Shown one piece after another: positions 50,693 to 64,000 of a stretch of DNA of 64,000 nucleotides. Numbering within the stretch: position 1 is the stretch's first letter; each line of letters opens with the position of its first letter. Origin of the DNA: an uncultured Clostridia bacterium (GTDB taxonomy: Bacteria > Bacillota > Clostridia > Christensenellales > CAG-917); assembly GCA_947625145.1 (NCBI GenBank), contig CANQNC010000001.1, positions 74,312 to 138,311 on the forward strand, given 5' to 3'. The notes beneath the pieces were generated by a model. It was not told where the DNA came from. It searched no databases and was given only the letters and a program-made list of their open reading frames with translations. The position numbers and the translations under genes are program-made.

Positions 50693-53464
50693 ATGAAAAA
50701 GAATTTTTTGAAGGTGTTTATCGTCACATTGTTTGTCGTCGTGCTTGCGGCGGCGCTTGTCGCTTGCAACGGCGGGGACAACGCGTCCGACAAAAAACCG
50801 TCGGGCGGAGGAAATCACGAAGAAGAACCGACTTCAAATGTGTTGACGGACGCGCAAATGGAGGACATGTTCGATTTGACGCTTGACGAAAAAGGATACG
50901 CGATCGGCAGATACATGGGATCCGTTGCCGACCTCGCTCTCCCTTCCACGTACAAAAACAAGCCGATCTACGCCATTGGGCAAGGAACGTTTAAGGATTG
51001 CGCGGTCTTGACGTCGATCGCGATTCCCGACAGCGTGCAAATCATAGGCGTAAAGGCGTTTTCGGGTTGTACGGGATTGAGGGAGATTATCGTCCCCGGC
51101 AGCGTGACAGACATTGGGGCGTACGCGTTCTTCGGGTGCGTCGGGTTGCGTACGGTGACGCTGTGCGAGGGCGTCAAAACCATAGCGCAGGACGCATTTT
51201 CCAACTGCTATGGATTGATGGAGATAGTTGTCCCCGAAAGCGTGAAAACAATAAGTTTCTCGTCGTTTGGAAACACCTACAAACTTGTGCATATACGCAA
51301 TCTGAGCGGCGCGGAGATATCGTCTCCCGCAACGGACGGCGAAGTTTTGACCTCGGCAAGCGCGGAGTTCAAAAACAAACTTGAAAAAGACGAGCACGGC
51401 ATTTGGACATACACCGTGGGCGAAAAGGTGTATGCCATTGATTATGAGGGGAAAGACGCAAATATTGATTTTTCATTGAACGACAAGATCAACACAATCT
51501 ATCCGAATGCATTTTATGAGCGTACGGATATAGAGTCCGTCGTCATTCCCGGCAATGTGAAAAACATATATGAGTATGCATTCGGGGGCTGTACGGGCTT
51601 GAGGACGGCGACGATAGGCGACGGAGTCTACTTTGTGGGAATGAATTTGTTTTCTCATTGCGTCAACTTGACTCAAATATACATCCCCGACAGCGTGCAA
51701 TTGATAAGCAACAACTCGTTCGAATATTGCAACAAACTTGTGCACATACGCAATCTGAGCGGTGTTGAAATATCTTCTCCCGCGGCGATAGGCGGTGAGG
51801 TCGTGACATCTGCGGACGAAGAGTTTCAAAACAAGCTCGAAAAGGACGAAAACGGCGTTTTGACATACACGGTCGGAAGTACGGTGTATGCGATCGGCAG
51901 TGATGGAACAAGCTCGAACATTTCATTGAACGGAAAGGTCAACGCAATTTATCCTTATGCCTTTTATAGGCACAACGAGTTGAAGGAGATCACGATACCC
52001 GAGGGTGTGCGATCCATAGGCAATTGTGCCTTCGATGGTTGCAACGAATTGCAAACCGTCAATTGGAACGCGGCGGATTGTGCAAGCTCGTACGCCTTCT
52101 TTGACAATTGCCCGCGACTTATGACCGTGAACATAGGCAACGGCGTGCAAAATATCCCCGCATACACATTCGAGGGTTGCGAGGAGTTGCGGACCGTGAC
52201 GATCGCCGTCGGTGTGAACAGCATAGGCGACAACGCTTTCAGCGGATGCCGAAATTTGACGGAGATAACCATTCCCGCAAGCGTGCAAAGCGTAGGAGAG
52301 GCGTTTGTCAACTGCCCCAAACTTGTGCACATACGCAATCTGAGCGGCGTTGAAATATCGTCTCCCGCAACGGACGGCGAAGTCTTGACCTCGGCGAACG
52401 CGGAGTTCCAAAACAAAATCGAAAAGGACGCGAACGGCATTTGGACATACGCCGTGGGCGACAAGGTTTACGTTTTCGGTTATGAAGGGACAAATTCGAC
52501 ATTGACTCTCGGCAGTGAGATCAACGCTATTTATCCGTATGCGTTCTACGAGTGCGCGGGTTTGAAGAAGATAGATTTTTCTGACGGCATCACAATCATT
52601 GGCGCGCACGCATTCGAGGGTTGCGCGGGCTTGAGAGAGATCGCCGTCCCCGTCCACGTGGAAACCATCGGGGACAGCGCGTTCAGAGATTGCACGCGTT
52701 TGAAGAAGGTCAACTGGAACGCGACGAATTGCATGACGGCGGGCAGCGAACACTATTTCATTTTTGAAAGGTGCGCGCAGCTTGAAACCGTCAATTTCGG
52801 TGCAAGCGTACAGATCATTCCCTCATATGCGTTCGAGGAGCGCTTGGGATTGAAAGAGATACTTATTCCCGACAGCGTAAAAACCATAGAAGGGTATGCG
52901 TTTGTCGATTGCGCAAACTTGCAGACGGTGACTATAGGCAAGGGCGTTGAAAGCATAGGAGAGGGAGCGTTTTACAATTGCTCAAGTTTGAGCGCGATAA
53001 CGATCCCCGAAAAAGTGACCGCCATTGCAGACAAGACGTTCTATTATTGCAAAAAGTTGACGGAAATAACCATTCCCGACAATGTGAAAACCATAGGAAA
53101 GGAAGCGTTTGCATATGCGGCTTTGCGGACAGTGACGATAGAGGACGGTGTGGAAAGCATAGGCGAGAGCGCGTTCTTGTATTGCACGGGGTTGAGGGAG
53201 ATCATCATTCCCGCAAGCGTGCAAACCATAGGCGGCGCGGCATTCAATTTTTGCACAGCAATGCAGATGGTGTATTATGGAGGCACAAGCGAGGATTGGG
53301 ACGAGATCTCGATAGGAAGTCCCGACGGATATTTGATCGGCGTAGAGCGCAGTTATTTCCGCGCGCAGGATCCGTATCAAAACGACACGGCGGCGGACGG
53401 CGAAGCATATTGGCATTGGGACGAGGACCATTCCGCGCCCGAAATGTGGGTCAAGCAGGATTGA
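50693..53464 (+). CDS. Surface lipoprotein with BspA-type leucine-rich repeats
   Basis: Signal peptide plus lipobox (LAAALVAC). More than 25 repeats of the pattern I.IP.SV..IG..AF..C..L. Confidence 0.85.
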   Translation: MKKNFLKVFIVTLFVVVLAAALVACNGGDNASDKKPSGGGNHEEEPTSNVLTDAQMEDMFDLTLDEKGYAIGRYMGSVADLALPSTYKNKPIYAIGQGTFKDCAVLTSIAIPDSVQIIGVKAFSGCTGLREIIVPGSVTDIGAYAFFGCVGLRTVTLCEGVKTIAQDAFSNCYGLMEIVVPESVKTISFSSFGNTYKLVHIRNLSGAEISSPATDGEVLTSASAEFKNKLEKDEHGIWTYTVGEKVYAIDYEGKDANIDFSLNDKINTIYPNAFYERTDIESVVIPGNVKNIYEYAFGGCTGLRTATIGDGVYFVGMNLFSHCVNLTQIYIPDSVQLISNNSFEYCNKLVHIRNLSGVEISSPAAIGGEVVTSADEEFQNKLEKDENGVLTYTVGSTVYAIGSDGTSSNISLNGKVNAIYPYAFYRHNELKEITIPEGVRSIGNCAFDGCNELQTVNWNAADCASSYAFFDNCPRLMTVNIGNGVQNIPAYTFEGCEELRTVTIAVGVNSIGDNAFSGCRNLTEITIPASVQSVGEAFVNCPKLVHIRNLSGVEISSPATDGEVLTSANAEFQNKIEKDANGIWTYAVGDKVYVFGYEGTNSTLTLGSEINAIYPYAFYECAGLKKIDFSDGITIIGAHAFEGCAGLREIAVPVHVETIGDSAFRDCTRLKKVNWNATNCMTAGSEHYFIFERCAQLETVNFGASVQIIPSYAFEERLGLKEILIPDSVKTIEGYAFVDCANLQTVTIGKGVESIGEGAFYNCSSLSAITIPEKVTAIADKTFYYCKKLTEITIPDNVKTIGKEAFAYAALRTVTIEDGVESIGESAFLYCTGLREIIIPASVQTIGGAAFNFCTAMQMVYYGGTSEDWDEISIGSPDGYLIGVERSYFRAQDPYQNDTAADGEAYWHWDEDHSAPEMWVKQD
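51281..52475 (+). repeat. Three intragenic super-repeats within the LRR gene
   Basis: About 155-bp near-identical blocks start at 51281, 51734 and 52319 (AAACTTGTGCA(T/C)ATACGCAATCTGAGCGG...). They encode KLVHIRNLSG.EISSPA..GEV.TSA..EF.NK.EKD..G..TY.VG..VY. Confidence 0.85.
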
Positions 53465-53531
53465 GAGACAAATCAAATGAAATTCGCAAAAGAGTAAGCA
53501 GACAAAGAAAAACTTAGACGTTTTCAGCAAA

Positions 53532-53557
53532 GGGAGAGCGGGAGGCTCTCCCTTTTG
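53532..53557 (+). terminator. Rho-independent terminator of the LRR lipoprotein gene
   Basis: GGGAGAGC-GGGAG-GCTCTCCC followed by TTTT. Confidence 0.8.
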
Positions 53558-53795
53558 CATAGAGGCGGAGGAGACTGAAATGGATTTTGTTGCCGACGTT
53601 GGGTTTTCAGTGTCCCGATTGGGTGGTTTGAGGTTTTTAGGACAAGTCCGCATGTGGCGCGTGAGAAACGCGAATTTTTTGGGCGTGCGCGGCGGTAAAA
53701 AGACAAAATGGCGCGGTGAGGCGTATCCGAGACAACAGAATATGGCAAATTGTTTTGATTTTGCGAGTTCACACAGAAAAAATTGATCGTATCCC

Positions 53796-53824
53796 TTGCA
53801 ATTTGGCGATGCAGGTGATATTAT
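53796..53824 (+). promoter_or_regulatory. Sigma-A-type promoter of the vWA/PP2C/kinase operon
   Basis: TTGCAA, 17-bp spacer, TATTAT, about 120 nt upstream of the ATG at 53944. Confidence 0.55.
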
Positions 53825-53943
53825 GATTATAGTTTTTTTTCGCAAATGAGGACCTTATCAAAAAAAACCCCGTTTGCGACATATATGGCCAAAGCGCCTG
53901 CAAGACGGCGCGCAAATATTGACAAAAAACGGAGGTAAAATTT

Positions 53944-54663
53944 ATGGCATTTCTTCAAGGAATGGGCTACAAACTTGACATTGTGTTTGTGATCGACTCC
54001 ACGGGAAGCATGGGCCCCATCATCAACGAGGTCAAGAGCAACGCGCTTACGCTCGGCGACAGACTCAAAGAAGGACTTGAGGCGGAAAGCAAGATGGTTT
54101 CCGAAATGAGAGTCAAGGTCGTTGACTTTGCGGACTACGCAAGCGAGGGCGACGAGGCGATCCGTCAAACCGAGTTCTTCTCTCTGCCCGATCAAAAGGC
54201 GCAGTTTGAGGCGGCGGTCAACGGCATCAACATCGACATGCGCGGCGGCGACATCCCCGAAAACGGACTTGAAGCGCTCTATTCTGCAATGTGCGCGGAT
54301 TGGGTGAAGATCAGACCGGGCGAGAAGGGCCGTCACATCATCATCGTCATGTCGGACGCGGTTCCTCTTCATCTGCATGAGAGAGACGGGAGCATCGGCT
54401 ATCCCAGCGAGGACATCCCCGCAGACGTCGCGGCGCTCGAGAGCATCTGGAGCGAGAAAGACGCGCAGGCGGCGAGCACCGAGCTCAACCCCAACGCAAA
54501 GCGCCTTATCCTCTTTGTGCCCGAAGGCAGAGACGCGGCGGGCCACACATGGGACACGCTTGCAACATGGGAAAACACGGTTCTCAACCCCATCAACCCC
54601 GCGGCGGGTCTTGGCGAAATAGATCTCGACGATATCATCAAAGAGGTTGTCAGGAGCTTCTGA
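53944..54663 (+). CDS. Small cytoplasmic von Willebrand factor A (vWA) domain protein, TerY-like
   Basis: MIDAS start LDIVFVIDSTGSMGP (DxTxS), later GGDIPENG and IIIVMSDAVP. 239 aa, no signal peptide. GGAGG RBS. Confidence 0.8.
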   Translation: MAFLQGMGYKLDIVFVIDSTGSMGPIINEVKSNALTLGDRLKEGLEAESKMVSEMRVKVVDFADYASEGDEAIRQTEFFSLPDQKAQFEAAVNGINIDMRGGDIPENGLEALYSAMCADWVKIRPGEKGRHIIIVMSDAVPLHLHERDGSIGYPSEDIPADVAALESIWSEKDAQAASTELNPNAKRLILFVPEGRDAAGHTWDTLATWENTVLNPINPAAGLGEIDLDDIIKEVVRSF

Positions 54664-54732
54664 TCGTTTGATGTCGTGCGGAAAGGCAGGCATGCCTTTC
54701 CGCACATTTTTTTAATACAGGAGGACAAATAT

Positions 54733-57045
54733 ATGCCCGTAAAAGAGCGAGAACTTGTAAGTCATCGCCCAAACGTCGCCTTCTTGGGGAAGCGCGACGG
54801 CGTGGGGAACAGCTTCCTCGATCTGTCCAAGGACAGATTGGTTGTTTTTTCCGAGAGGTCAGGCAACCTTTATAAGTACGGCGGAGACGCGTATCCCGTC
54901 GTGTGGGAGGAAGAGAAAAACGGCATAAAATACGGGCTGATCCTAGCCGCGGACGGCGTGGGACAGGGCGGATTTGTTCATCCGTCTCTCAAGCGCAGGC
55001 TCTGCGAGCTGATAAGCCGCGAATACGGCGATATGAAAAACGACGTCGAACTCTCGGACGAGGACAACAAGTTGATGCTCGCCGTTTTTTTGAAGGTCAT
55101 GTTCGACATCGAGCCCTTCTCCGCTGCGGAGAATGACGCGCATGACGCGCAGAGCAAAGAGGTGTTTGAATACGCGCTCCGTTGCTTCGCCGACGTGCCC
55201 GTGGGCGGATATTACGGCGGAAGAAAGCCGCTGAACAGCGCGGACGAGGACCAACAGGTCGTCACGCCTTTTTACAACAGAGACAGTCAGTCCCTTGCGT
55301 CGCGAATTGCTTGCGTTTGGATATATCAGCAATTCAGGACGTGGGCGCTTGACAAACATTTGACAAAATGGACGACAAAAGATGTCAACGAACTCAGAGA
55401 GTCCATCACCGACAGCATGTATCGGGATGACGAATCCTCTTTGAGCGGCAGGGTAAGACAGCTGTTCTCCTACGACGACGCGCCGAAGGAGGACAACCGC
55501 AACATATATTATCTGCCCGCCACGGTGGCAGCTTGGTTTTATATCGACGACGGCAAAAAGATATCCGCCGTCGCGCTCAACTGCGGGGACGCGAGATGCT
55601 ATAAGGTGGACCTCGCGGACGGCGTGAAGCAAATTTCTGACGACGACGTTGTGGACGGCGACAAGATGAGCGCGTTTGTGCACTTCGGCGTCACAAGAAG
55701 AAGCGCCGCAAACGGCTATGAGGGCTACTTCGATGGCACTTTCCGCGCCGCGATCGTCGAGCTTCAAGCTCCATGCGCGCTGTTTGCGTGCTCGGACGGC
55801 GTTTACGACACCTGCCCGCAGGAGTGGCTTGGGGAGCAGGAACGTCCGCTCGGATTTGAAAACGGAGATTGCAGCGATATCCTCTTTGAAAACAGAATGC
55901 TGAAGGCGTTCAAACGCGCCTACAGCCTTGACGACCTCGCAAGAGAGATCGTGTTCTCCTTCTACGGCCAAAACAGTCCGCACGGCTTGAAAAAGCAATT
56001 CTGCTTGGAATGGCAGGAAGCTGGCGCGGGCGAAAAGGTCAAAAAGGACGACAGCGGAACGTTTGCGGCAAAGCTGTTTTCCACGGACGGCGACCCCTTG
56101 CAACTTATGGAGAAGTTGCGCGAGGGGAAGGACGCCACCACGCTTGAAGTTTTGACGACGGTCGCGTATGAGAAAAACATTGCGTTTGTAAATCCGCACC
56201 TTCAAAGCTCGGAGGAGCAGAGCGCGGAAGAGTTTATGGAATTTGCAAGAGACGTCATCACAAACGGCGATTTTGTCGCGCTTCTGTCCGCAAGGATCCC
56301 GAAAGAGACTTTGATCGCAAAGCGCGGCGAGGGCATCGCGAGCTTTTGGGGCATAAACCTGCAAAAGGCAAATCTTGCGATCCCGTTCGGTCGCGTGCTG
56401 AAAGCGAACGCGGTCGGCATAATCAACTATTTGCTCGAACTGCATGAAAACGGAGAGGACGATCCCGAGATCGCCGCTGTCCTTGCAAAGTACAAGGTCG
56501 CGGAAAAGAAGGAGGAGTCTCAGCCCAAAATCAACTACGCCGTCGAGCGCGAACGCCTCAAATTCGAAACCATTCAGAAAGCTTTTTACGGCGATCTGCT
56601 GTTGAGGAAGGACAGATCCGACGTGATCGTGGACAGCGGCAGGCACGTAAGCGGGCTTGTGACCGAGATCGAGAATATCGAAAAGGGCTTGGCGGAACAG
56701 CAAGCGGCGGAAAGGGAAGCCCGTCTTGCCGCGGAACGCGCCGCAGACGAAGCCAAAAAAGAGGCGGAACGCGCGGCGGAAGCGGCAAGAAAAGCCGAGG
56801 AAGAGGCAAGACTTGCGGCAGAGCGCGCAGAGGAAGCAAGACGCGCGGCGGAAGGCGGCGCGCCCGCGTTCGAGTTCGAAGAGGAAGATCCCGAAAACGA
56901 AATGTCCGATTCATCCTTCCCCAAAAAGACGGGGCGCCCGAGTTGCGTCGGGGAGCGCAAGGCTCCGACCGAAGGTTCCGAGGGCGCAAGCGCGTTTACG
57001 ACTGTGACCGCAACGTCCACCGTCAAGGACGAAAACGAGGACTAA
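54733..57045 (+). CDS. PP2C-like Ser/Thr phosphatase with large inserts and an Ala/Glu/Arg-rich coiled-coil C-terminal region
   Basis: PP2C motif series: LILAADGVGQGG (DGxGG-like), ALNCGDARCY (GDSR-like), LFACSDGVYD (SDG), KKDDSGTFAA (DN.T-like). AGGAGGA lies upstream of the ATG at 54733. Confidence 0.7.
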   Translation: MPVKERELVSHRPNVAFLGKRDGVGNSFLDLSKDRLVVFSERSGNLYKYGGDAYPVVWEEEKNGIKYGLILAADGVGQGGFVHPSLKRRLCELISREYGDMKNDVELSDEDNKLMLAVFLKVMFDIEPFSAAENDAHDAQSKEVFEYALRCFADVPVGGYYGGRKPLNSADEDQQVVTPFYNRDSQSLASRIACVWIYQQFRTWALDKHLTKWTTKDVNELRESITDSMYRDDESSLSGRVRQLFSYDDAPKEDNRNIYYLPATVAAWFYIDDGKKISAVALNCGDARCYKVDLADGVKQISDDDVVDGDKMSAFVHFGVTRRSAANGYEGYFDGTFRAAIVELQAPCALFACSDGVYDTCPQEWLGEQERPLGFENGDCSDILFENRMLKAFKRAYSLDDLAREIVFSFYGQNSPHGLKKQFCLEWQEAGAGEKVKKDDSGTFAAKLFSTDGDPLQLMEKLREGKDATTLEVLTTVAYEKNIAFVNPHLQSSEEQSAEEFMEFARDVITNGDFVALLSARIPKETLIAKRGEGIASFWGINLQKANLAIPFGRVLKANAVGIINYLLELHENGEDDPEIAAVLAKYKVAEKKEESQPKINYAVERERLKFETIQKAFYGDLLLRKDRSDVIVDSGRHVSGLVTEIENIEKGLAEQQAAEREARLAAERAADEAKKEAERAAEAARKAEEEARLAAERAEEARRAAEGGAPAFEFEEEDPENEMSDSSFPKKTGRPSCVGERKAPTEGSEGASAFTTVTATSTVKDENED

Positions 57046-57089
57046 CAAACCAAATCCACAATTCATAAAACCAAAACGAGGAGATAAAA

Positions 57090-58925
57090 ATGCGTATTAG
57101 TGACTTTGTTCTGTCAGAGCCGTTGACAAGAGGGTCGAGACAAGCCGAAATGGCGAAGTGTACCTACAGAGGCAAGGTGTATCAACTGAAGATCCACAGC
57201 GCTGAGCCGAAGTGGTACAACGTTGACGACGCCATCAGAAGAAAAACGCAGGAGTTACGCAGCGCCGCGGAGGACAACAAAGAGAGGCTCCAAAGCGAGC
57301 TTGACAGCTTGAAGGCAAAAAGGGACGATTGGAACGAAAGAGACAAGATCTCGGATCAATATCTTTTGCTCAGACAAAACATCATCCGCCTTGTCAAGGG
57401 CACTCACAACTCCCATCTCGTGCCTCCCGAAGAGGCGTGGACGGAACCCATCGAGTCAAAGGGGAATGCGGTGTTTATGGTCGAGGCGACGCCTTGGCTT
57501 GAAAGCGCGGTCTGGTTTGACGAGGCAAAGCCCATTTGTTTCCACAGGGACATCCCGCAGGAAGAGCAATACGACATCATCGCTTCGCTTGCGGACGCGC
57601 TTGCGGATCTGCATGCGGCGGGCATTTTGCACTGCGACTTGAAGATTGACAACACGCTCATCACAAAGGATCCCGACGGCAAGAAGAAGGCGACCATAAT
57701 CGACTACGACGCCGCGATCATTTTGAGCGAGCTTCAATCGCGCAGATATCCTTTGAGCATGTGGAAAAACGAGATCGGCGGCACGTATTTCGCGCCCGAG
57801 TTCAAAAAACTTTTCGACATCGTGGACGCGGCGGATTCGCGCGAGTTCGACGCCTTCGATTTCAGCACGATCACGCCCAAAGCGGACGTGTATTCCCTTG
57901 CCTTTACGATCTACGAATATCTTTATGGCATGCTGTCGCCTTCAAACATCATGCCCTTCAAAACGGACGACGGCGAGATCTTGGAAGGCGTCGCGAGAAA
58001 CGACTATCCCGCCGCGGTGGAATACGGCTTCAAGCCCAATTTCCCGAGCGACCCCGCCGAGATGAGCGACCTCATCTACGGCGCGCTCAGATGGATGCTT
58101 GACAACGAGCCTGCCAATCGTCCCACCGCCGCGCAGGTGCGCGACGTGTTCAAGACGAGGGACATCAGGATGATCCCCGCGCAATATTGCAGGATAGACC
58201 TGACCACTCCTTGGGACGCGGACAAGATAGAATTTGTCCCCTCCGCGGAGTATATGGTGTCCAAAAACCCCTTGCGCGAGGGCGTGTATACCGTGCGCAG
58301 GAAGAGACCGGACGGCTCGCTCGGGCCCACCCTTTCAAGACGTGCGGCGGATCTTGTTCGCGACGGACTTGCGAGGTCCTTGGAGGCTCCCGCACCCGCG
58401 CCCGTCGAGGTGCGCGCTTTCTGGGAGAGCGACGGCATGACGGGGGATATGCCTGCATGCGTGAGGCGCAAAGACGGCATGGAAGGCAAATATGTGCTGT
58501 CCGTCTTGGGCGGGCTTTCCACGGTTTGCACGCTTGCCGAGCTTAAGCAAAAGGGCGTCGTTTGTTCGGACGCCGAACTTCTCACTCCGTGGCCCTCGGA
58601 CGCGATCCACTTCATCACAAGCAAGAGAGTGGAGCGCGACCTCACGCGCGGACCCAAACACTATGTTGTCAAAACTTTCCCCGCTCAGAGGCTGACCTCG
58701 GACGAGATGGTCGCCAAAAACTACGCGACAAAGGCGATTGCGTTCCAGATGTGGGCGGCGGACGAAGCGCTGTATGCTCCCAATCCCGAAGCCAATATGT
58801 CGGGAGTGACGAGCATCACAAGGGATTCGCTCAAAGGAAAGGGATATCGCGTTATGACCGCGGACGGCGCGTTGAAGCTGTCCATAGACGAAATGCTCGC
58901 AAAAGGCTATGTCAAAAGAAAGTAA
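57090..58925 (+). CDS. Hanks-type Ser/Thr protein kinase with four C-terminal ~55-aa repeats of an unassigned module
   Basis: Catalytic loop HCDLKIDN, DYD in place of DFG, GGTYFAPE, DVYSLAFTIYEYLYG, RPTAAQV. Repeats span aa 368-609. Confidence 0.8.
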   Translation: MRISDFVLSEPLTRGSRQAEMAKCTYRGKVYQLKIHSAEPKWYNVDDAIRRKTQELRSAAEDNKERLQSELDSLKAKRDDWNERDKISDQYLLLRQNIIRLVKGTHNSHLVPPEEAWTEPIESKGNAVFMVEATPWLESAVWFDEAKPICFHRDIPQEEQYDIIASLADALADLHAAGILHCDLKIDNTLITKDPDGKKKATIIDYDAAIILSELQSRRYPLSMWKNEIGGTYFAPEFKKLFDIVDAADSREFDAFDFSTITPKADVYSLAFTIYEYLYGMLSPSNIMPFKTDDGEILEGVARNDYPAAVEYGFKPNFPSDPAEMSDLIYGALRWMLDNEPANRPTAAQVRDVFKTRDIRMIPAQYCRIDLTTPWDADKIEFVPSAEYMVSKNPLREGVYTVRRKRPDGSLGPTLSRRAADLVRDGLARSLEAPAPAPVEVRAFWESDGMTGDMPACVRRKDGMEGKYVLSVLGGLSTVCTLAELKQKGVVCSDAELLTPWPSDAIHFITSKRVERDLTRGPKHYVVKTFPAQRLTSDEMVAKNYATKAIAFQMWAADEALYAPNPEANMSGVTSITRDSLKGKGYRVMTADGALKLSIDEMLAKGYVKRK

Positions 58926-58998
58926 TTGACAAAGCCGATGTGGCACAATCATTGCAGGTATGTTCGCGCTTTCTAACATATGCTGTATGGGGTGCGTT

Positions 58999-61017
58999 AT
59001 GGCGGAAGAAAGGATCTATCAACCTTGGGATGAGGACCGCATCAAGCCCGTTGAGGGCAGCAACTACAAATTTTGGCGCGGGTCCGAACCGGGGAAATAC
59101 TTTTATAGCATAGGCTCCATTTACGGCGGGGAAACGACCGCCGCGACCCTTGTCGATCGGTTTCACGCCGCGGTGCGCCTCGACGGCTCCTCCGCCGCGC
59201 CGAAAGCGGAAACGGCAAGAGCCGAGGATACGAGAGTGGGGTCTATGCTTGACAGATTCCGCGCCTCTAGGCGTACGGGACCTTCCGCCGAGAGCGAGGA
59301 ACCAAGCGCGGACAGCGCGGCGCCCGCAAGGGAAGAGTCGATTGAAATCGTGAGCAACGCAGACGACAAAATCGAGGAAGAGGAAGCCTTGCCCGAGGAC
59401 TCTGCTGAAGAGGAATACGAGGGACAGGCTCCCGAAACCGCCGAATACGCGGACTTGCAGGCCGCGCCCGCTGAGGACGGCGAGCATATCTGTGAGCCTT
59501 GGCCAAGCGACGGCATCGTCTTTGTCAAGGGAGATTGGAAAATTTGGCGCGCCGCGTACGAGGGCATGTATTTCTATGCGGTGGGCGGCACGCCGGGCAG
59601 AGACGCCGTGGACGCCGTGTCCCTCATGGAGTGGAACATGGCGACGTTGCCCACATATATCGCGCTGACGCCGTGGATAAGCGGGCTTGTCTTCAAGGAT
59701 GGGGATTGGCAGATCATGCGGGACGTCTTTGCGGGCGGCGCAAACAAAAACAGAAAATATTATATCCAAACCGCAAGCGGCGTGGAAAAAGTCAATATGT
59801 ACGAGCTTTTGGCGCGGGATATGGCGACTTGCGACGCTTCGGTGGAGAAAGAGATAGAGTCCGCCGCGCTGTCTGCGATCAAGGGCGATGATCAATATCG
59901 TCCGTGGCCTTCGGACAAGATCGTGTTTGCGGAAAGAGCGGGAGTGACGATCAGGCGCGCAAGCGCGGAGGGCGTGTACGTCCTCAAAAACGGCAGTTTC
60001 AGCAGAAGCGTAAATGCCGCGCGTTTGAGGGAAGAGAGGTTGGCTATCTCCGCCCGCGACGCAGGCATAGCAAGGCTGAGGTCCTCGCAGAGCCTCACGT
60101 GGCAAAGGCTTCAAAGCGACTTCGCCGACTTCTGGAAGCACGAGGATCCGCAATCCGTGGACAGTTTCAGGGAGATCGCCGCGATTTGGCAGGAGCTTCG
60201 CACAAAAAACTCTCCCGTTCGGCAGAGGATCAAGGGCAAATATCTTGAAACGTGCGCGGTGATCGCGGAGGCAATGCGGAAAATCGCGGATTGTCGCGAG
60301 GCGTTCGGCGCAATGTTCGCGCGGCTCAGAGAGATGGACGCGCAGGCAAGCAGGATCATCACCTTTGCGGACGGCATGCGCATAGACAACTTCGCGGAAA
60401 AAAAGACGCAACTCGAGGAGCAGTGCGAAGCGCTGGCTCCCTTGCTCGGCGGCTTTGAGGAGAGCTTGAACGCAGAGCTCATGCCCAAGATCAACGACGT
60501 CAACGCGCAGGCGGCTGTGCTCAGAGGGATAGATATGTGCGCGCTTTGCCCGCTTGAAAAGCTCCCGTCCGACTTCCAAAAGGAGATAGAGGGCGAGGTG
60601 AAAGAGGCTCTGGGGACGGGCTCCCTGTCGCAAGCGATCGCAAACGTCTCGGCGGAGCTGGCGCGAGTCTCTTTGGGCGGAGACAGCGACTTTGCCAAGA
60701 GCAGGAATAAGCTCTCGAATGGCGTGGACAAGTTGCGCGGCGTCATAAAGGACGCGAGGGCGCGCGCGGACGCGCTCGGGGAAAGAGCGGCAAGGCTGGA
60801 CAGCTACAAAGGAGATATCGACGGCGCGATAGGCAAAGCCCCCGGGTGGCTGACTCCGCGCCCGCGCAAGGGAGACGGGATCGCCTTCCTGACCGCGGTC
60901 AAAATCAAGGCGGCAAGCAACTTCGACGGCTATTTGCTCCCATTGAAGGGAGGCAAGCGCGTGCCCGTTTCCGCCGCGGACCTTGTGTATCTGGGGCTTG
61001 CGAAGTACGTGGCGTAA
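58999..61017 (+). CDS. Uncharacterised 672-aa protein: four N-terminal and one C-terminal copy of the same module, an acidic linker and a central ~260-aa helical region
   Basis: Good coding texture, co-directional, 73 nt after the kinase stop. PW-x-SD motifs at ORF-track aa 22, 180, 238 and 315 (GW at 629). The start could also be 58987 or 58960. Confidence 0.7.
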   Translation: MAEERIYQPWDEDRIKPVEGSNYKFWRGSEPGKYFYSIGSIYGGETTAATLVDRFHAAVRLDGSSAAPKAETARAEDTRVGSMLDRFRASRRTGPSAESEEPSADSAAPAREESIEIVSNADDKIEEEEALPEDSAEEEYEGQAPETAEYADLQAAPAEDGEHICEPWPSDGIVFVKGDWKIWRAAYEGMYFYAVGGTPGRDAVDAVSLMEWNMATLPTYIALTPWISGLVFKDGDWQIMRDVFAGGANKNRKYYIQTASGVEKVNMYELLARDMATCDASVEKEIESAALSAIKGDDQYRPWPSDKIVFAERAGVTIRRASAEGVYVLKNGSFSRSVNAARLREERLAISARDAGIARLRSSQSLTWQRLQSDFADFWKHEDPQSVDSFREIAAIWQELRTKNSPVRQRIKGKYLETCAVIAEAMRKIADCREAFGAMFARLREMDAQASRIITFADGMRIDNFAEKKTQLEEQCEALAPLLGGFEESLNAELMPKINDVNAQAAVLRGIDMCALCPLEKLPSDFQKEIEGEVKEALGTGSLSQAIANVSAELARVSLGGDSDFAKSRNKLSNGVDKLRGVIKDARARADALGERAARLDSYKGDIDGAIGKAPGWLTPRPRKGDGIAFLTAVKIKAASNFDGYLLPLKGGKRVPVSAADLVYLGLAKYVA

Positions 61018-61102
61018 GCCAAGCGCAAATCAATAGAAATCAGGCGTAGACCAAGCAAAACAAGGATTAAACCAAACATAAACAATCCGAAGGAGAAAAA
61101 CA

Positions 61103-62392
61103 ATGTCAACAGTCGAAAACAATGACGACATCATGGGCTCGGGCAGTGAAGTCCTTGAAGAGATGAAGGATCCGTCCGCCGCGGCAAAGCGCTTTGCGGA
61201 CAGCTGGAACGGCGGGATCGCAAAAAAAGGCAAGGTCGAAGAAGAGGTCGCCGAGTTTATCGAGCACTACAAGGCCTCGGTTTTCGGCGCGGGAGAGGGA
61301 GTGGATTATCTCTTCAAATTCTCCGCGGCGGTCATCACGTTGCCGCTTGCCTCTTTCGGTCAAGCCAAGATAGACGAGATCGTCTCCCCCGAGGGCATGG
61401 GCTTGGACAGCGTAAAACAACGGCTGACTTCCATACGGAAAAACTTGCACAAGGAGATCAAAGAGGCCAGCGAAGCCGTTTACGAGTGTTCGGATCCCAA
61501 CAGATATGTTGAGATCATCGGCAAAGCGAAGTTCCTTGCAAGCGCGTACGAGGCACTGAGCAGACTTTGCGACACTGTCGGCGGCAACGCGAAGCATGCG
61601 GAGCAGACTTTGGACAAATATCTTGCCGTCAAGCGCGTGGACGACTTCTTCGGGGCACAACTTGAAAAATACGGCTCCTATCCTCTTTTCAACAACTTTG
61701 TGCAGTCCGAGGAATACAAGACGTACACGCTGAGGAACAAGGGTCAGGACAGAAGGAAGCGCTCTCTTGCCATGATCCGGGCGGATCTTGCGAGGTGCTA
61801 CGGCGCGCATATGACAGAGGAGATCGCCCCTTTGTGCAAGGAATCTTCTCTTCCTTCGGCAAGGGATATCCAAAGGATAGACGAGGACCTGAAGGACAGG
61901 CGCGTCTTGGACAAGCTGATCGCCGAGCTCGGCGAATACAAAGCCGATCTTGACAGGGCTTTGCAGGCGCTCAGGAAGGACGTTGTTGAGGAGCAAAAGC
62001 AGAGGAATGTCCAAACCATCGGCGTATATTTCGATTGCGTCAAGCCCGCGGCGCCCAAGAAGGATCATCCCGACAACAGCAAAAGGGATCAGAGGCTCGT
62101 GCATTGGAACGCGGAGAGGAACGGGTATTTCGTAGGCAAAACGTTCGATTTTGAAAACTATGCGACCTTGACTGTGGAAAGGTTGGACAGCTACGTGCGG
62201 GAAGTCGCTTCCCCACAGGCAACCGAAGTGGCCGTCACTCTCGCCGCTTTGAAGAAGGCGGGGTACGTGGCTTCGGACGCGGAAGCCGTGGTGATCGTGG
62301 GCGAGTGCGCTTGGACAAAAGAGCTTAGGGTGTCCGCGCCCGACGACAAGGTGTACTTCTCACAGGCGGCAGCCGAGACTGTGCTTCGTTGA
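61103..62392 (+). CDS. Uncharacterised 429-aa mostly helical protein ending in one (possibly two) copies of the shared module
   Basis: AAGGAGA RBS. C-terminal LVHWNAERNGYFVGKTF...VTLAALKKAGYV. Confidence 0.7.
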   Translation: MSTVENNDDIMGSGSEVLEEMKDPSAAAKRFADSWNGGIAKKGKVEEEVAEFIEHYKASVFGAGEGVDYLFKFSAAVITLPLASFGQAKIDEIVSPEGMGLDSVKQRLTSIRKNLHKEIKEASEAVYECSDPNRYVEIIGKAKFLASAYEALSRLCDTVGGNAKHAEQTLDKYLAVKRVDDFFGAQLEKYGSYPLFNNFVQSEEYKTYTLRNKGQDRRKRSLAMIRADLARCYGAHMTEEIAPLCKESSLPSARDIQRIDEDLKDRRVLDKLIAELGEYKADLDRALQALRKDVVEEQKQRNVQTIGVYFDCVKPAAPKKDHPDNSKRDQRLVHWNAERNGYFVGKTFDFENYATLTVERLDSYVREVASPQATEVAVTLAALKKAGYVASDAEAVVIVGECAWTKELRVSAPDDKVYFSQAAAETVLR

Positions 62393-62426
62393 CGAATGAA
62401 AATTGCGGTTTTAGCGGAGGAATGAT

Positions 62427-63293
62427 ATGAAGATCACAACCGTCATTGGATCATGTTCGACAAAACGCCGCCCCATGGGCATACAGTTTGTGGAGCGCGG
62501 CGGCGATTACGTTGCGGGCGGCTCATTTACGGTCACGTCCGAGGCGTCCGTGGGGGAGAGCGAGGAGCTGAACGGTGCCTTCAAGTTGTCTCAATCCTTC
62601 AGATGCAAATATTGCGGAAACAGATATGTCTATCAGTGCAGTAGGTGCGGCAAGTTCGTGTGCTATGACGGGCTTGAAAAGCACGGCGCGGTATGCCCGT
62701 CCTGCGGCAACGTCGCAAACGTCCCCGCGACAAAGACGGATCGCATCGTGCGCAGCGGCGGAGGCGGCAAAAAGCAGATTTTGATCGCCATGGACGTCTC
62801 CGAAAGCATGAACGAAAGCAGCGGTCGCACCACGCGTATGGAGGAGACCAAAAAGGCGGCGATAGACGAGTTTATCAACAAATTTGCGGGCAATCCCATG
62901 GCGCTCGTCGTGTTTTCCACGGGCACGAGGGTCGTGCTTCCGTTCTCGGAAAATTCGGACGCCGTGCGCAGAGCGGTGGCAAGCGTGCGCGCTGAGGGCG
63001 GCACGACAAGCCCGTTTGCCGAGATATGCGAAAAATTCCCCGATTTCATTCACGGCACGGGGGAGAGGATAATCGTCGTGTTTACGGACGGCGCGTGGAG
63101 CGGCAAGGAAGAGGGACATATCGCAAGAGCGCAGAACATCCGCGACGCGGGCGTGAAGATTTTGGCGATAGGTTGCGCGGGAGCGAGAGCACAATTTTTG
63201 CGCTCCATTGCAAGCCCCGGCTTCGACATTTCGGCAAACGACGGCAGCATAGGCACGGCGTTTGCGGAAGCGGCGGAAAAGGTCAGCCAATAA
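62427..63293 (+). CDS. Zinc-ribbon-fused vWA domain protein
   Basis: N-terminal CKYC...CSRC...C...CPSC cluster, then a vWA domain with a classical MIDAS motif (ILIAMDVSESM = DxSxS, GGTTSP, VVFTDGA). GGAGG RBS. Confidence 0.8.
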   Translation: MKITTVIGSCSTKRRPMGIQFVERGGDYVAGGSFTVTSEASVGESEELNGAFKLSQSFRCKYCGNRYVYQCSRCGKFVCYDGLEKHGAVCPSCGNVANVPATKTDRIVRSGGGGKKQILIAMDVSESMNESSGRTTRMEETKKAAIDEFINKFAGNPMALVVFSTGTRVVLPFSENSDAVRRAVASVRAEGGTTSPFAEICEKFPDFIHGTGERIIVVFTDGAWSGKEEGHIARAQNIRDAGVKILAIGCAGARAQFLRSIASPGFDISANDGSIGTAFAEAAEKVSQ

Positions 63294-63335
63294 GAAGTCG
63301 AAAACAAGTAGAAAACAAGAAGTCAAAAATAAAAA

Positions 63336-63360
63336 GGCGGGAGAGTATCCCGCCTTTTTT
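63336..63360 (+). terminator. Rho-independent terminator closing the six-gene operon
   Basis: GGCGGGA-GAGTA-TCCCGCC followed by TTTTTT. Confidence 0.85.
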
Positions 63361-63528
63361 GCAGGCTTGAGTTTTGTTTCGCTTGCTTTGCCTTGCGAAG
63401 AAGCCGTTTTGTGTGGCAAAGGACATATTGCCGAAAACGTATGTTAAACATGCAAAACGACGACATAAAACCGCGTTTCGGTCATGTCTACGGATTTAAG
63501 ACGGAAAATCAAAATCCTTGCGACGGGG

Positions 63529-63557
63529 TTGAAAAGGCAGATCGTTTGGTGTATAAT
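63529..63557 (+). promoter_or_regulatory. Sigma-A-type promoter abutting the HAD hydrolase start codon
   Basis: TTGAAA, 17-bp spacer, TATAAT. The in-frame ATG at 63564 lies 7 nt after the -10 element. Confidence 0.55.
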
Positions 63558-63563
63558 ATGGGT

Positions 63564-64000
63564 ATGCTGAAACTTGTGCTTGTTGACATCGACAACACTT
63601 TGCTCGACTTTGACAAATGCTCGGAGGATTCCATGAAGAGGGCCTGCGAGGATTTCGGTATACCCTTTGAGCGGAGCATGTTTGAAGTGTTCAAGCGCAC
63701 AAACGACCGCTTGTGGTTGCAGATCGAACAGCGCACGCTCACCAAAGAGAGGCTGTTCGAGATAAGGTGGAACCTGATTTTCCACGAGCTTGGCGTGCGC
63801 GGCGTGGACGGCGTGGAGTTTGAAAAGCAATTCCACGTCTATCTCAACGTCAGCCATATCCCCGTGGACGGCGCGCTTTCCGCCCTCGAGTATCTCGCCT
63901 CGCGTTATCGCGTTTGCGCCGCAAGCAACGCGGTCACCTCTCAACAGCCCCTGAGGTTGGAAAAGGCGGGCATGCTGAAATATATCGAGCGGCTGTTTTT
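63564..64000 (+). CDS. HAD-superfamily hydrolase (YjjG-like nucleotidase type), 3' end beyond the window
   Basis: Motif I LVLVDIDNTLLDF. The frame is open to the window end. An alternative in-frame ATG at 63558 directly abuts the -10. Confidence 0.7.
   Translation, partial: MLKLVLVDIDNTLLDFDKCSEDSMKRACEDFGIPFERSMFEVFKRTNDRLWLQIEQRTLTKERLFEIRWNLIFHELGVRGVDGVEFEKQFHVYLNVSHIPVDGALSALEYLASRYRVCAASNAVTSQQPLRLEKAGMLKYIERLF

What the first reader, a model, noticed from the sequence alone, without database searches (positions are those of the whole stretch)
53796..63360. Six-gene vWA / PP2C / Ser-Thr kinase operon: a TerY-P-type triad extended by two unassigned large proteins and a second, zinc-ribbon-fused vWA protein
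Six co-directional genes (53944-63293) are separated by only 34-85 nt. They are framed by one promoter-like element (53796-53824) and one strong terminator (63336-63360). Genes 1-3 are a small vWA protein (MIDAS DSTGS), a PP2C-like phosphatase (AADGVGQGG, CGDARCY, CSDGVYD) and a Hanks-type kinase (HCDLKIDN, DYD, YFAPE). As I recall, this trio is the TerY-phosphorylation (TerY-P) triad defined by comparative genomics (Anantharaman, Iyer and Aravind 2012). It was later listed among anti-phage systems (Gao et al. 2020, and PADLOC). Here the triad is followed by a 672-aa protein, a 429-aa protein and a second vWA protein with an N-terminal multi-Cys zinc ribbon. I cannot match either large protein to any family. 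None of the six has a signal peptide or TM helix, so the assembly is predicted to be cytoplasmic. The tight operon structure and a repeat module shared by genes 3, 4 and 5 argue that the extra genes belong to the system. That would make it a larger phospho-regulated vWA system than the described three-gene version.
Basis: partly seen in the sequence, partly recalled or inferred. Interest (0 to 1): 0.85.

Follow-up and report, generated by a model that had tools for sequence, protein, structure and literature searches.

The report
Extended vWA–phosphatase–kinase system in gut Clostridia
Six neighbouring genes form a rare, conserved signalling system: a metal-binding adhesion-type protein, a phosphatase and a kinase, joined by two proteins built from a previously uncatalogued small domain and by a zinc-finger protein; it is a new variant of a poorly understood stress or anti-phage module, and its function is untested.

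Summary
The six genes are real. Their order is conserved in eight distinct loci from uncultured gut Clostridia and Christensenellaceae: vWA, PP2C-like, Hanks kinase, gene 4, gene 5, then one or more TerY-C zinc-ribbon proteins.

- A strong terminator-like hairpin lies between gene 1 and gene 2. A hairpin sits at that position in 8 of 8 loci, with a T-run in 7. The cluster is therefore not simply one promoter and one terminator.
- The repeat is a roughly 60-residue beta-rich module. Gene 4 has five copies and the kinase two strong plus two weak. It was not detected in gene 5, which has its own conserved C-terminal domain.
- The gene 6 "zinc ribbon" is the Pfam TerY-C domain. In relatives it is fused to vWA, to TerD, to an unknown domain, or stands alone.

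Gene 4 has only 38 representatives among 1.84 billion proteins. Its confident AlphaFold model has no meaningful structural match.

No PADLOC model matched the vWA, phosphatase, gene 4, gene 5 or gene 6 proteins. The kinase lacks the C-terminal zinc ribbon or OB fold of described TerY-P triads.

Verdict: a new variant of the TerY-P/Ter kind. Function (defence or stress signalling) is inferred, not shown.

The parts
53796..53824 (+). Sigma-70-like promoter candidate (TTGCAA, 17 nt, TATTAT, with upstream TG), about 115 nt before gene 1
   Evidence: It matches 9 of 12 positions. Such sites are not enriched over shuffles, so the evidence is weak.
53944..54663 (+). Gene 1: small single-domain vWA protein (239 aa) with MIDAS motif DSTGS at residues 18-22. 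It is the most conserved protein of the system.
   Evidence: Pfam VWA_4 and VWA are above their cut-offs. Median identity is 57% across 8 loci.
54676..54713 (+). Intrinsic-terminator-like hairpin (13-bp stem, 8 G-C pairs, 4-nt loop) followed by TTTTTTT, in the gene 1-gene 2 gap. The gene 2 ribosome-binding site follows about 10 nt later.
   Evidence: -25.8 kcal/mol, z -5.0. An equivalent hairpin is present in 8 of 8 loci, with a T-run in 7 of 8; the sequences differ.
54733..57045 (+). Gene 2: PP2C-like phosphatase (770 aa). The catalytic region is about residues 1-480, with motifs GGDAY, DGVGQGG, GDAR, SDGV and DDS. It is followed by a helical region, an Ala/Glu/Arg-rich helix and a disordered tail.
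   Evidence: The motifs are conserved in the family alignment. PP2C_2 (PF13672) hits 2 of 4 homologues, best E = 1-2e-4 and below the gathering score. Gene 2 itself has no direct Pfam or PDB hit.
57090..58925 (+). Gene 3: Hanks-type Ser/Thr kinase (611 aa). The kinase fold covers residues 1 to about 360 (K34, HCDLKIDN, DYD, APE) and includes a long helical insert. Four C-terminal beta-rich modules follow: residues 364-444 and 490-563 are strong matches, 435-490 and 565-611 are weak.
   Evidence: Pfam Pkinase E = 1e-13. The AlphaFold model matches protein-kinase folds, with target-normalised TM about 0.55. Module HMM E = 3e-13 and 3e-12.
58999..61017 (+). Gene 4 (672 aa). It has five copies of the roughly 60-residue module (residues 1-74, 159-220, 216-292, 292-366 and 612-672). 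An acidic low-complexity linker spans about residues 75-158. A bundle of four long helices spans about residues 406-607.
   Evidence: Module HMM E = 1e-13 to 1e-20. The AlphaFold model of residues 160-672 has mean pLDDT 88.5. It has no match with E <= 1e-3 in PDB and none with a meaningful TM-score in either PDB or BFVD. The family has 38 representatives among 1.84 billion proteins. The start at 58999 is preferred over 58960 because homologues begin a few residues before the PW motif.
61103..62392 (+). Gene 5 (429 aa). The N-terminal part diverges rapidly. A conserved C-terminal domain of about 85 residues spans residues 345-426 (DNA 62135-62380).
   Evidence: A profile of the C-terminal domain built from the seven other loci hits gene 5 at E = 8e-11. 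The rest cannot be aligned by BLAST. There are no family hits.
62427..63293 (+). Gene 6 (288 aa). An N-terminal TerY-C-type zinc-binding module covers about residues 1-110, with CxxC at 60, 71 and 90. A vWA domain follows at about residues 116-270, with MIDAS motif DVSES at 123.
   Evidence: Pfam TerY_C scores 29.6 bits (cut-off 28.4), VWA_2 E = 1e-14. The N-terminal module is conserved in all related loci, with variable C-terminal partners.
63331..63359 (.). Bidirectional terminator-like hairpin (A-run, G+C-rich stem, T-run) that closes the cluster
   Evidence: -24.7 kcal/mol, z -4.1.

Best explanation
**What it is.** This is a conserved multi-gene, cytoplasmic phospho-switch system of the Ter/TerY-P kind, found in uncultured gut Clostridia and Christensenellaceae.

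**Shown**
- The invariant core is one or more small vWA proteins, a terminator-like hairpin, a PP2C-like phosphatase, a Hanks kinase, gene 4, a gene 5-type protein, and one or more TerY-C zinc-module proteins.
- The kinase and gene 4 both carry a system-specific beta-rich module of about 60 residues.
- The TerY-C proteins have a variable C-terminal domain: vWA, TerD, an unknown domain, or none.

**Inferred mechanism**
- The kinase and the PP2C-like enzyme act as an opposing pair and set the phosphorylation state of the other components.
- The kinase is brought to gene 4 because both carry a four- or five-module 'head'. They either bind the same partner or bind each other.
- The vWA MIDAS sites bind an acidic loop. 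The invariant Asp of the PWxxD motif in each module is a candidate ligand. This would assemble a larger complex.
- The hairpin after gene 1 makes the vWA transcript more abundant than the downstream genes, or makes their expression conditional on read-through.
- The TerY-C proteins are sensor or output subunits.

**Likely role**
- Anti-phage or conflict function, about 0.45.
- Ter-type stress signalling unrelated to phage, about 0.3.
- Something else, about 0.25.
For: - **Synteny.** The order is the same in eight distinct loci: the window, L002/L005/L012, L003, L006/L008, L009, L010, L011 and L013.
- **Specificity.** The family profiles give no hits in 1.48 Mb of control Clostridia DNA.
- **Enzyme motifs.** Catalytic motifs of the kinase and of the PP2C-like protein are conserved across the families. 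The kinase model has a protein-kinase fold. PP2C_2 hits two gene 2 homologues.
- **Module.** It is shared by gene 3 and gene 4. Two relatives are kinases with three and seven copies. It was found only in these proteins among 1.84 billion representatives.
- **Ter link.** Gene 6 has a TerY-C domain. TerD-domain proteins lie at the same position in five of eight loci; TerY-C is detected on them in four and only weakly in L013.
- **Internal hairpin.** It is present in 8 of 8 loci although the sequences differ.
- **Conflict-like features.** Conservation falls along the operon: vWA 57%, PP2C 44%, kinase 41%, gene 4 30%, and gene 5 alignable over only about 18% of its length. L011 has four vWA and five TerY-C paralogues. 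Distribution is patchy: pattern scans of 185,579 species genomes found seven loci on seven contigs, five of them new full loci, and none came from the five genomes closest to the window by PurA.
- **Precedent.** The described TerY-P triad was reported to protect against T7-like phages (PMC7699616, PMC11090510).
Against: - No recognisable effector (nuclease, pore-former, NADase or protease) is encoded in the window cluster.
- No PADLOC model matches the vWA, phosphatase, gene 4, gene 5 or gene 6 proteins.
- The flanks are housekeeping genes rather than a defence island or mobile element, and G+C content matches the surroundings.
- PP2C-family pattern scans found no copy in IMG/VR viral contigs or JGI metagenome contigs.
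- Gene 2 itself has no direct PP2C hit.
- The MIDAS-module interaction, the phosphorylation targets and the terminator function are inferences with no direct data.
- The fold of the module could not be searched on its own, because the helical bundle dominated the structure search.
Confidence: 0.6

Rival explanations
1. A Ter-type abiotic stress-response module. It would sense a metal, Ca2+ or a small nucleoside-like ligand through the MIDAS, TerY-C and, in relatives, TerD domains. It would then signal by phosphorylation and have no role against phage.
For: TerY-C is present in gene 6. TerD proteins occur at the same position in five of eight loci. RyR-domain, YbjN and AAA+/M41 protease genes lie next to the system in L002/L005 and L003. 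The chromosomal context is stable and housekeeping. A copper P-type ATPase lies 6.5 kb upstream in the window. The published view treats Ter systems as stress-response machinery (PMC4978471, PMC11090510).
Against: The window lacks TerD and shows no TerB, TerC or TerZ membrane components among the genes scanned. The rapid divergence of genes 4 and 5, the paralogue expansion and the patchy distribution fit biological conflict better than a fixed abiotic ligand.
Confidence: 0.3
2. Two functionally separate units that only happen to be adjacent. Gene 1 would be a stand-alone vWA gene with its own terminator, and genes 2-6 an independent operon.
For: A strong terminator-like hairpin with a T-run follows gene 1. 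A promoter-like site at 54611-54638 lies inside the 3' end of gene 1.
Against: The vWA gene immediately precedes the PP2C-like gene in 8 of 8 loci from different species. It is also the most conserved member. The hairpin itself is conserved in position, which suggests regulated coupling rather than chance adjacency. There is no room for a promoter between the T-run and the gene 2 ribosome-binding site.
Confidence: 0.1
3. An ordinary three-gene TerY-P triad followed by unrelated neighbouring genes.
For: The described triad has three genes (PMC7699616). Genes 4 and 5 have no annotated family.
Against: Gene 4 follows the kinase in 8 of 8 loci. A gene 5-type protein and a TerY-C (or TerD-type) protein follow it in each locus. 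Gene 4 shares a domain with the kinase.
Confidence: 0.03
4. A developmental (sporulation or cell-envelope) signalling pair of the PrkC/PrpC type, with accessory proteins.
For: A kinase with C-terminal tandem small domains next to a PP2C-type phosphatase recalls PrkC/PrpC. The hosts are spore-formers: SpoVAD lies next to L003 and SipL lies in the window.
Against: There is no transmembrane segment and no PASTA domain hit. The module begins with beta strands and ends with a helix. The system is absent from the nearest relatives, which is unlike a core developmental regulator.
Confidence: 0.05

Closest known systems
TerY-P (TerY-phosphorylation) triad: vWA + PP2C + Ser/Thr kinase (Anantharaman, Iyer and Aravind 2012; Gao et al. 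2020; as summarised in PMC11090510, PMC7699616 and PMC4978471)
   Same: It has the same three enzyme and domain types next to each other, vWA proteins with MIDAS motifs, and a TerY-C zinc module in the system. Both are predicted to act as a phosphorylation switch.
   Different: - The kinase carries four copies of a new beta-rich module instead of a C-terminal zinc ribbon or OB fold.
- TerY-C sits on separate proteins, N-terminal to vWA, TerD or other domains.
- Two further conserved proteins (genes 4 and 5) are obligatory.
- A terminator-like hairpin follows the vWA gene.
- No linked helicase, nuclease, McrBC-type or WXG/FtsK module was found.
- No PADLOC model matches the vWA or phosphatase.
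Extensions of Type III-A CoCoNuT operons that are flanked by two TerY-like vWA genes (PMC11090510)
   Same: Extra genes are bracketed by two vWA genes in a TerY-P context. Coiled-coil-rich partners are present. In some relatives an AAA+ ATPase of the CDC48/FtsH kind is adjacent (L002, L003).
   Different: There is no McrBC-like GTPase, no helicase and no HEPN nuclease. The inserted genes are the phosphatase, the kinase, gene 4 and gene 5 themselves.
Classical ter operon proteins TerY (vWA) and TerD
   Same: The domain vocabulary is shared: vWA, TerY-C, and TerD in five of eight related loci.
   Different: No TerB, TerC, TerZ or biosynthetic ter genes were seen. TerD is fused behind a TerY-C module. 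The window copy has no TerD at all.
PrkC/PknB-type kinases with tandem PASTA domains, paired with a PP2C phosphatase (PrpC/Stp)
   Same: A Hanks kinase with tandem small C-terminal domains sits next to a PP2C-type phosphatase in Firmicutes.
   Different: It is cytoplasmic, with no membrane segment. The repeated module is not PASTA. It is an accessory system with patchy distribution.

Membership tests
TerY-P triad | vWA (TerY-like) protein with a MIDAS metal site | tested here: met
   Gene 1 hits VWA_4 and VWA above their cut-offs and has DSTGS. Gene 6 hits VWA_2 at E = 1e-14 and has DVSES.
TerY-P triad | Adjacent PP2C-family phosphatase | tested here: inconclusive
   Gene 2 has no Pfam, NCBIfam or PDB sequence hit. 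Two of four homologues hit PP2C_2 at E about 1e-4, scoring 22.1 bits against a cut-off of 24. Five PP2C-type motifs are conserved in the correct order. It is probably a divergent PP2C, but no structure-based confirmation was possible.
TerY-P triad | Adjacent Hanks-type Ser/Thr kinase | tested here: met
   Pkinase E = 1e-13. The model matches protein-kinase folds. The catalytic residues are invariant in the family alignment.
TerY-P triad | Kinase fused at its C-terminus to a zinc ribbon (TerY-C), or to an OB fold in the tested defence versions (PMC11090510) | tested here: not met
   The kinase C-terminus consists of four beta-rich modules and has no Cys cluster. TerY-C is on gene 6 instead.
TerY-P triad | Recognition by models of a defence-system library (PADLOC-DB 2.0) | tested here: not met
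   Genes 1, 2, 4, 5 and 6 and their homologues gave no hit better than E = 0.01. The kinase hits only models named for other systems among the 25 of 29 families shown. I could not check which TerY-P models that library holds.
TerY-P triad | Linkage to DNA-processing or restriction modules, or to WXG/FtsK secretion genes (PMC4978471, PMC11090510) | tested here: not met
   The scanned flanks of the eight loci are housekeeping or unrelated genes.
TerY-P triad | Protection against phage | not testable with these tools
   This needs expression and phage challenge.
Ter stress-response gene set | TerY-C metal-binding domain | tested here: met
   Gene 6 residues 53-105 score 29.6 bits against a cut-off of 28.4. 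The module is conserved in the related loci.
Ter stress-response gene set | TerD-domain protein in the cluster | tested here: not met
   None is present in the window cluster. It is present in five of eight related loci: L002/L005, L009, L010, L011 and L013.
vWA-MoxR ternary conflict systems (PMC7159879) | MoxR-type AAA+ ATPase paired with the vWA protein | tested here: not met
   There is no AAA+ domain in the six window proteins. Two relatives have a double-AAA+/M41 protease nearby, which is not MoxR.
PrkC/PknB PASTA kinases | Membrane-spanning kinase with extracellular PASTA repeats | tested here: not met
   There is no PASTA hit. The only NCBIfam match to that family lies in the kinase domain. 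There is no hydrophobic segment.

The most novel reading that the evidence does not exclude
This would be a previously unrecognised anti-phage or conflict system of gut Clostridia. A kinase/PP2C switch would control assembly of MIDAS-containing vWA proteins onto a new beta-rich module, which is carried both by the kinase and by a rapidly evolving stalk-shaped sensor (gene 4). Interchangeable TerY-C-fused proteins (vWA, TerD, unknown) would act as outputs. A conserved attenuator after the first vWA gene would set stoichiometry or make expression conditional. That would be a defence architecture with no classical effector domain.
Probability: 0.3. Interest if true: 0.75.

Novelty: new variant of a known kind. 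Interest (0 to 1): 0.6.

Why it matters
How TerY-P triads work is not established in the papers I could read. PMC11090510 calls their role a hypothesised metal-sensing phosphorylation switch.

This variant separates parts that are fused in the described triads, because TerY-C sits on its own proteins. It also adds obligatory partners that share a domain with the kinase. That gives concrete candidates for what the kinase docks to and what the vWA MIDAS sites bind.

It also defines two uncatalogued domains: the roughly 60-residue module, and the gene 5 C-terminal domain. A conserved internal terminator is a regulatory feature that can be tested directly.

The system is rare and confined to uncultured gut anaerobes. 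This limits its generality and makes experiments harder.

Tried and rejected
- **Word-indexed homologue searches.** Searches with gene 4, alone and as a three-sequence alignment, returned only the query. Low-complexity words probably filled the candidate list. The exhaustive search then found the family.
- **Looking up the gene 4 product by exact sequence.** Nothing was on record.
- **Scan of GTDB species genomes with gene 4 alone.** No relatives were found.
- **PDB sequence and profile searches with genes 2 and 4.** They gave only coiled-coil noise.
- **Structure prediction of the gene 2 catalytic region.** The PP2C fold therefore could not be tested by structure.
- **Foldseek with the gene 4 model.** Against PDB and BFVD it returned only long helical bundles such as ClyA, SMC/Rad50 coiled coils and designed bundles, all with low TM-scores. 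I do not read these as homology. Gene 4 has no hydrophobic hairpin that would suggest a pore-former. The module could not be searched alone.
- **Rfam scan of 53000-64000.** Nothing relevant was found.
- **Viral and JGI metagenome scans with the PP2C-family patterns.** No relatives were found.
- **Glutamine synthetase III as a synteny anchor.** It found no close relatives (at most 68% identity), so I could not test whether the cluster is an insertion. Those loci served as a negative control instead.
- **Anantharaman et al. 2012 (PMC4104200).** The paper is not held. Its content is cited only through later papers and my own recollection.

Full report
**1. The observation**

Six co-directional ORFs are present: gene 1 at 53944-54663 (239 aa), gene 2 at 54733-57045 (770 aa), gene 3 at 57090-58925 (611 aa), gene 4 at 58999-61017 (672 aa), gene 5 at 61103-62392 (429 aa) and gene 6 at 62427-63293 (288 aa).
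- The ORF list starts gene 2 at a GTG at 54676. The likely start is the ATG at 54733, 8 nt after AGGAGG.
- The gaps are 69, 44, 73, 85 and 34 nt (gene 2 start corrected).
- None of the six proteins has a transmembrane-like segment.
- The promoter-like site at 53796-53824 and the terminal hairpin at 63331-63359 are found. Promoter-like sites are not enriched over shuffles in this region, so the promoter call is weak.

It is a 13-bp stem with 8 G-C pairs followed by TTTTTTT, at 54676-54713 (-25.8 kcal/mol, z = -5.0).

**2. Domain content**

- **Gene 1** is a bare vWA domain with MIDAS motif DSTGS.
- **Gene 3** has a Pkinase hit at E = 1e-13.
  - Its AlphaFold model (mean pLDDT 65) aligns to protein-kinase structures over about 370 columns.
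  - K34, H181, D183, K185, N188, D207, P236, E237, D266 and R344 are invariant among its homologues.
- **Gene 6** has VWA_2 (E = 1e-14) preceded by the Pfam TerY-C metal-binding domain, scoring 29.6 bits against a cut-off of 28.4. The 'zinc ribbon' therefore has a name, and that name ties the locus to the Ter domain set.
- **Gene 2** has no hit in Pfam, NCBIfam, PADLOC or PDB sequences, even as a four-sequence profile.
  - Two of its four homologues do hit PP2C_2, at E = 1-2e-4 and just below the gathering score.
  - The family conserves GGDAY, DGVGxG, GD(A/S)R, SDG(V/I)Y and DDS in the PP2C order.
  - I treat it as a divergent PP2C. This is probable, not proven.
- **Genes 4 and 5** match nothing in Pfam, NCBIfam, PADLOC or PHROGs.

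**3. Related loci**

The kinase has full-length homologues at 38-46% identity. Their contigs, together with scans of GTDB species genomes using kinase and PP2C-family patterns, gave eight distinct loci: the window, L002 (= L005/L012), L003, L006 (= L008), L009, L010, L011 and L013.

I built profiles from each gene family and ran them over all ORFs of these loci. Every locus shows the same order:
1. One to four small vWA genes.
2. The PP2C-like gene.
3. The kinase.
4. A gene 4 homologue.
5. A gene at the gene 5 position.
6. One to five proteins at the gene 6 position. Seven loci have TerY-C N-terminal module proteins there. L009 has a TerD protein in which that module was not detected.

The same profiles gave no hit in 1.48 Mb of unrelated Clostridia DNA. 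Genes 4-6 therefore belong to the system.

The hosts are MAGs labelled Clostridia, Firmicutes or Christensenellaceae, from rabbit and other metagenomes; L014, a weak PP2C-only hit, is from goat rumen. The window itself comes from an uncultured Clostridia lineage. Its PurA is at most 83% identical to human-gut MAGs and 81% to a Christensenella MAG. None of those closest genomes appeared among the loci found by the pattern scans. Those scans can miss divergent copies.

**4. The repeat module**

An HMM iterated over the family finds five copies in gene 4: residues 1-74, 159-220, 216-292, 292-366 and 612-672, at E = 1e-13 to 1e-20. In the kinase it finds two strong copies (364-444 and 490-563, E about 1e-12) and two weak ones. 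It finds none in gene 5 (E = 7.8).

The usual gene 4 layout is three N-terminal modules, a helical region and one C-terminal module. The window protein and one relative carry an extra N-terminal module followed by a linker, which in the window is acidic.

The consensus is about 60 residues, with the pattern PWxxDxIxF ... GxY ... (L/V)xxxG(L/Y)A. P, W and D of the PWxxD motif are invariant in the first module, and the Asp also in the third.

**5. Gene 4: rarity and structure**

An exhaustive HMMER search of 1.84 billion representative proteins with gene 4 residues 160-672 found 38 proteins at E <= 1e-3. About 24 are full-length relatives, roughly 25-30% identical to one another. Two of the 38 are kinases, with three and seven module copies.

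The AlphaFold model built on 19 sequences is confident, with mean pLDDT 88.5.
- Each module is a small sheet of four strands followed by a short helix.
- The middle of the protein is four long helices.
- With an even number of long helices, the N-terminal and C-terminal modules should lie at the same end of a stalk. This last point is inference.

Foldseek against PDB and BFVD gave no match with a meaningful TM-score. The top hits were generic long helical bundles. The module could not be searched alone.

**6. Gene 5**

Proteins at this position are too divergent for BLAST outside their C-terminus. A profile of the C-terminal domain, built only from the seven other loci, hits window gene 5 residues 345-426 at E = 8e-11. 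In two loci (L003 and L013) the protein consists of little more than this domain. Its only resemblance to the kinase is an 18-residue stretch (E = 0.07), which I do not count as shared ancestry.

**7. The TerY-C proteins**

The N-terminal module of about 110 residues has conserved GSCSxK and GSFT motifs followed by the Cys cluster. Its C-terminal partner varies:

| C-terminal partner | Loci |
|---|---|
| vWA | window, L003, L011 (two copies) |
| TerD | L002/L005, L010, L011; TerD also at this position in L009 and L013, where the N-terminal module is undetected (L009) or weak (L013) |
| Unknown domain of about 270 residues | L002/L005, L011 |
| None | L006, L010, L011 |

. L011 has four vWA paralogues upstream and five TerY-C proteins downstream.

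**8. The internal hairpin**

All eight loci have a G+C-rich hairpin in the gap between the last small vWA gene and the PP2C-like gene. Seven of the eight also have a T-run. The sequences are unrelated to each other.

In the window there is no room for a promoter between the T-run and the gene 2 ribosome-binding site. Genes 2-6 must therefore be read either by read-through or from a promoter inside gene 1. A weak candidate for such a promoter lies at 54611-54638.

I infer partial termination or attenuation. This would give more vWA transcript than downstream transcript, or would make downstream expression conditional.

**9. Evolutionary pattern and context**

Median pairwise identity falls along the operon: vWA 57%, PP2C region 44%, kinase 41%, gene 4 30%. 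Gene 5 is alignable over only about 18% of its length.

The flanks differ between loci and are housekeeping genes:
- In the window: purine biosynthesis genes, glutamine synthetase III, a BspA-type LRR protein and a copper ATPase.
- In the other loci: polA and sbcC.

G+C content in the cluster matches the neighbourhood. PP2C-family pattern scans found no relative in IMG/VR or JGI metagenome contigs. A large protein with ClpB-like and FtsH-like AAA+ domains and an M41 peptidase lies next to the system in L002/L005 and L003, but not within the window.

**10. Comparison with known systems**

Later papers summarise the TerY-P triad as a vWA protein, a PP2C and a Ser/Thr kinase. In the described triads the kinase is fused C-terminally to a zinc ribbon; in the versions shown to protect against T7-like phages it is fused to an OB fold. 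The triad is often embedded in restriction-type or secretion-type clusters (PMC11090510, PMC7699616, PMC4978471).

This locus shares the three domain types and TerY-C. It fails the kinase-fusion feature, the PADLOC match and the linkage to DNA-processing modules. It works like a TerY-P system but is not a demonstrated member. I file it as a new variant of that kind. I found no description of this architecture in the searchable literature, but the founding 2012 paper could not be read.

**11. Mechanism**

*Shown:* conserved gene order, conserved catalytic motifs, the module shared by the kinase and gene 4, variable TerY-C fusions, and the conserved internal hairpin.

*Inferred:*
- The kinase and the PP2C-like enzyme oppose each other.
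- The kinase is recruited to gene 4, or competes with it, through the matching module heads.
- The MIDAS sites bind an acidic loop, possibly the invariant Asp of the module. vWA MIDAS sites are known to bind extended peptides (PMC7159879).
- The TerY-C proteins act as sensor or output subunits.
- The hairpin sets stoichiometry.

The rapid divergence of genes 4 and 5, the paralogue expansion and the patchy distribution lean towards a conflict or defence role (about 0.45). A purely abiotic Ter-type stress role is less likely (about 0.3). No effector is evident and nothing has been tested experimentally.

Noticed in passing
L002 12213-15620; L005 16754-20161; L003 2-3967: A very large protein (1135 aa, and at least 1321 aa in L003) lies next to the system in two of the eight loci. 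It has a ClpB-type AAA_2 domain, an FtsH-type AAA domain and a Peptidase_M41 domain. It sits downstream in L002/L005 and upstream in L003. The only such hit in the window is the ordinary 719-aa FtsH at 28429-30588.
   Followed up: partly
L011 6319-9912 and 16984-21246: One rabbit-gut Clostridia MAG has four tandem paralogues of the small vWA gene before the phosphatase. After gene 5 it has five consecutive TerY-C-module proteins: one alone, two with vWA, one with an unknown domain and one with TerD. The numbers of vWA and TerY-C genes seem to rise together across loci.
   Followed up: partly
L008 16937-17943 and 7406-8611 (same contig as L006): A barnase-type ribonuclease (PF00545) with an adjacent barstar-like gene lies directly downstream of the Christensenellaceae copy of the system. 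An RtcB RNA ligase and an SPFH protein lie upstream. The link to the system is unknown.
   Followed up: no
L002 2201-2530 and 15669-16145 (also L005): A 109-aa RyR-domain protein lies immediately upstream of the vWA gene. A YbjN-family protein follows the AAA+/M41 protease. Both are seen in this one lineage only.
   Followed up: no
L004 2066-3562: In one ENA contig the kinase is called as a 377-aa product followed by a separate ORF that matches the kinase C-terminal part. It also has CVD where the other kinases have D(Y/F)D. This may be a split or decaying copy, or an assembly error.
   Followed up: no
L001 (ENA ERZ27249481, 1767-bp contig): A second metagenome assembly encodes a protein identical to window gene 5, flanked by the end of gene 4 and the start of gene 6. 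The same or a very close strain therefore occurs in another sample.
   Followed up: partly
window 50693-53464: The gene just upstream encodes a 923-aa BspA-type leucine-rich-repeat protein with a lipoprotein-like N-terminus. It contains three long, nearly identical internal segments (HIRNLSG.EISSPA...). It is separated from gene 1 by a 480-nt gap with several small hairpins.
   Followed up: no
window 54611-54638: A promoter-like site (TTGGCG, 16 nt, TATCAT) lies inside the 3' end of gene 1, upstream of the internal hairpin. Transcripts starting there would carry the hairpin in their 5' leader, which would fit an attenuator.
   Followed up: no
L002 10082-11215; L011 19149-20279: Two proteins have a TerY-C module followed by a conserved domain of about 270 residues with no Pfam or PADLOC match. 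It occupies the position taken by vWA or TerD in their paralogues.
   Followed up: no
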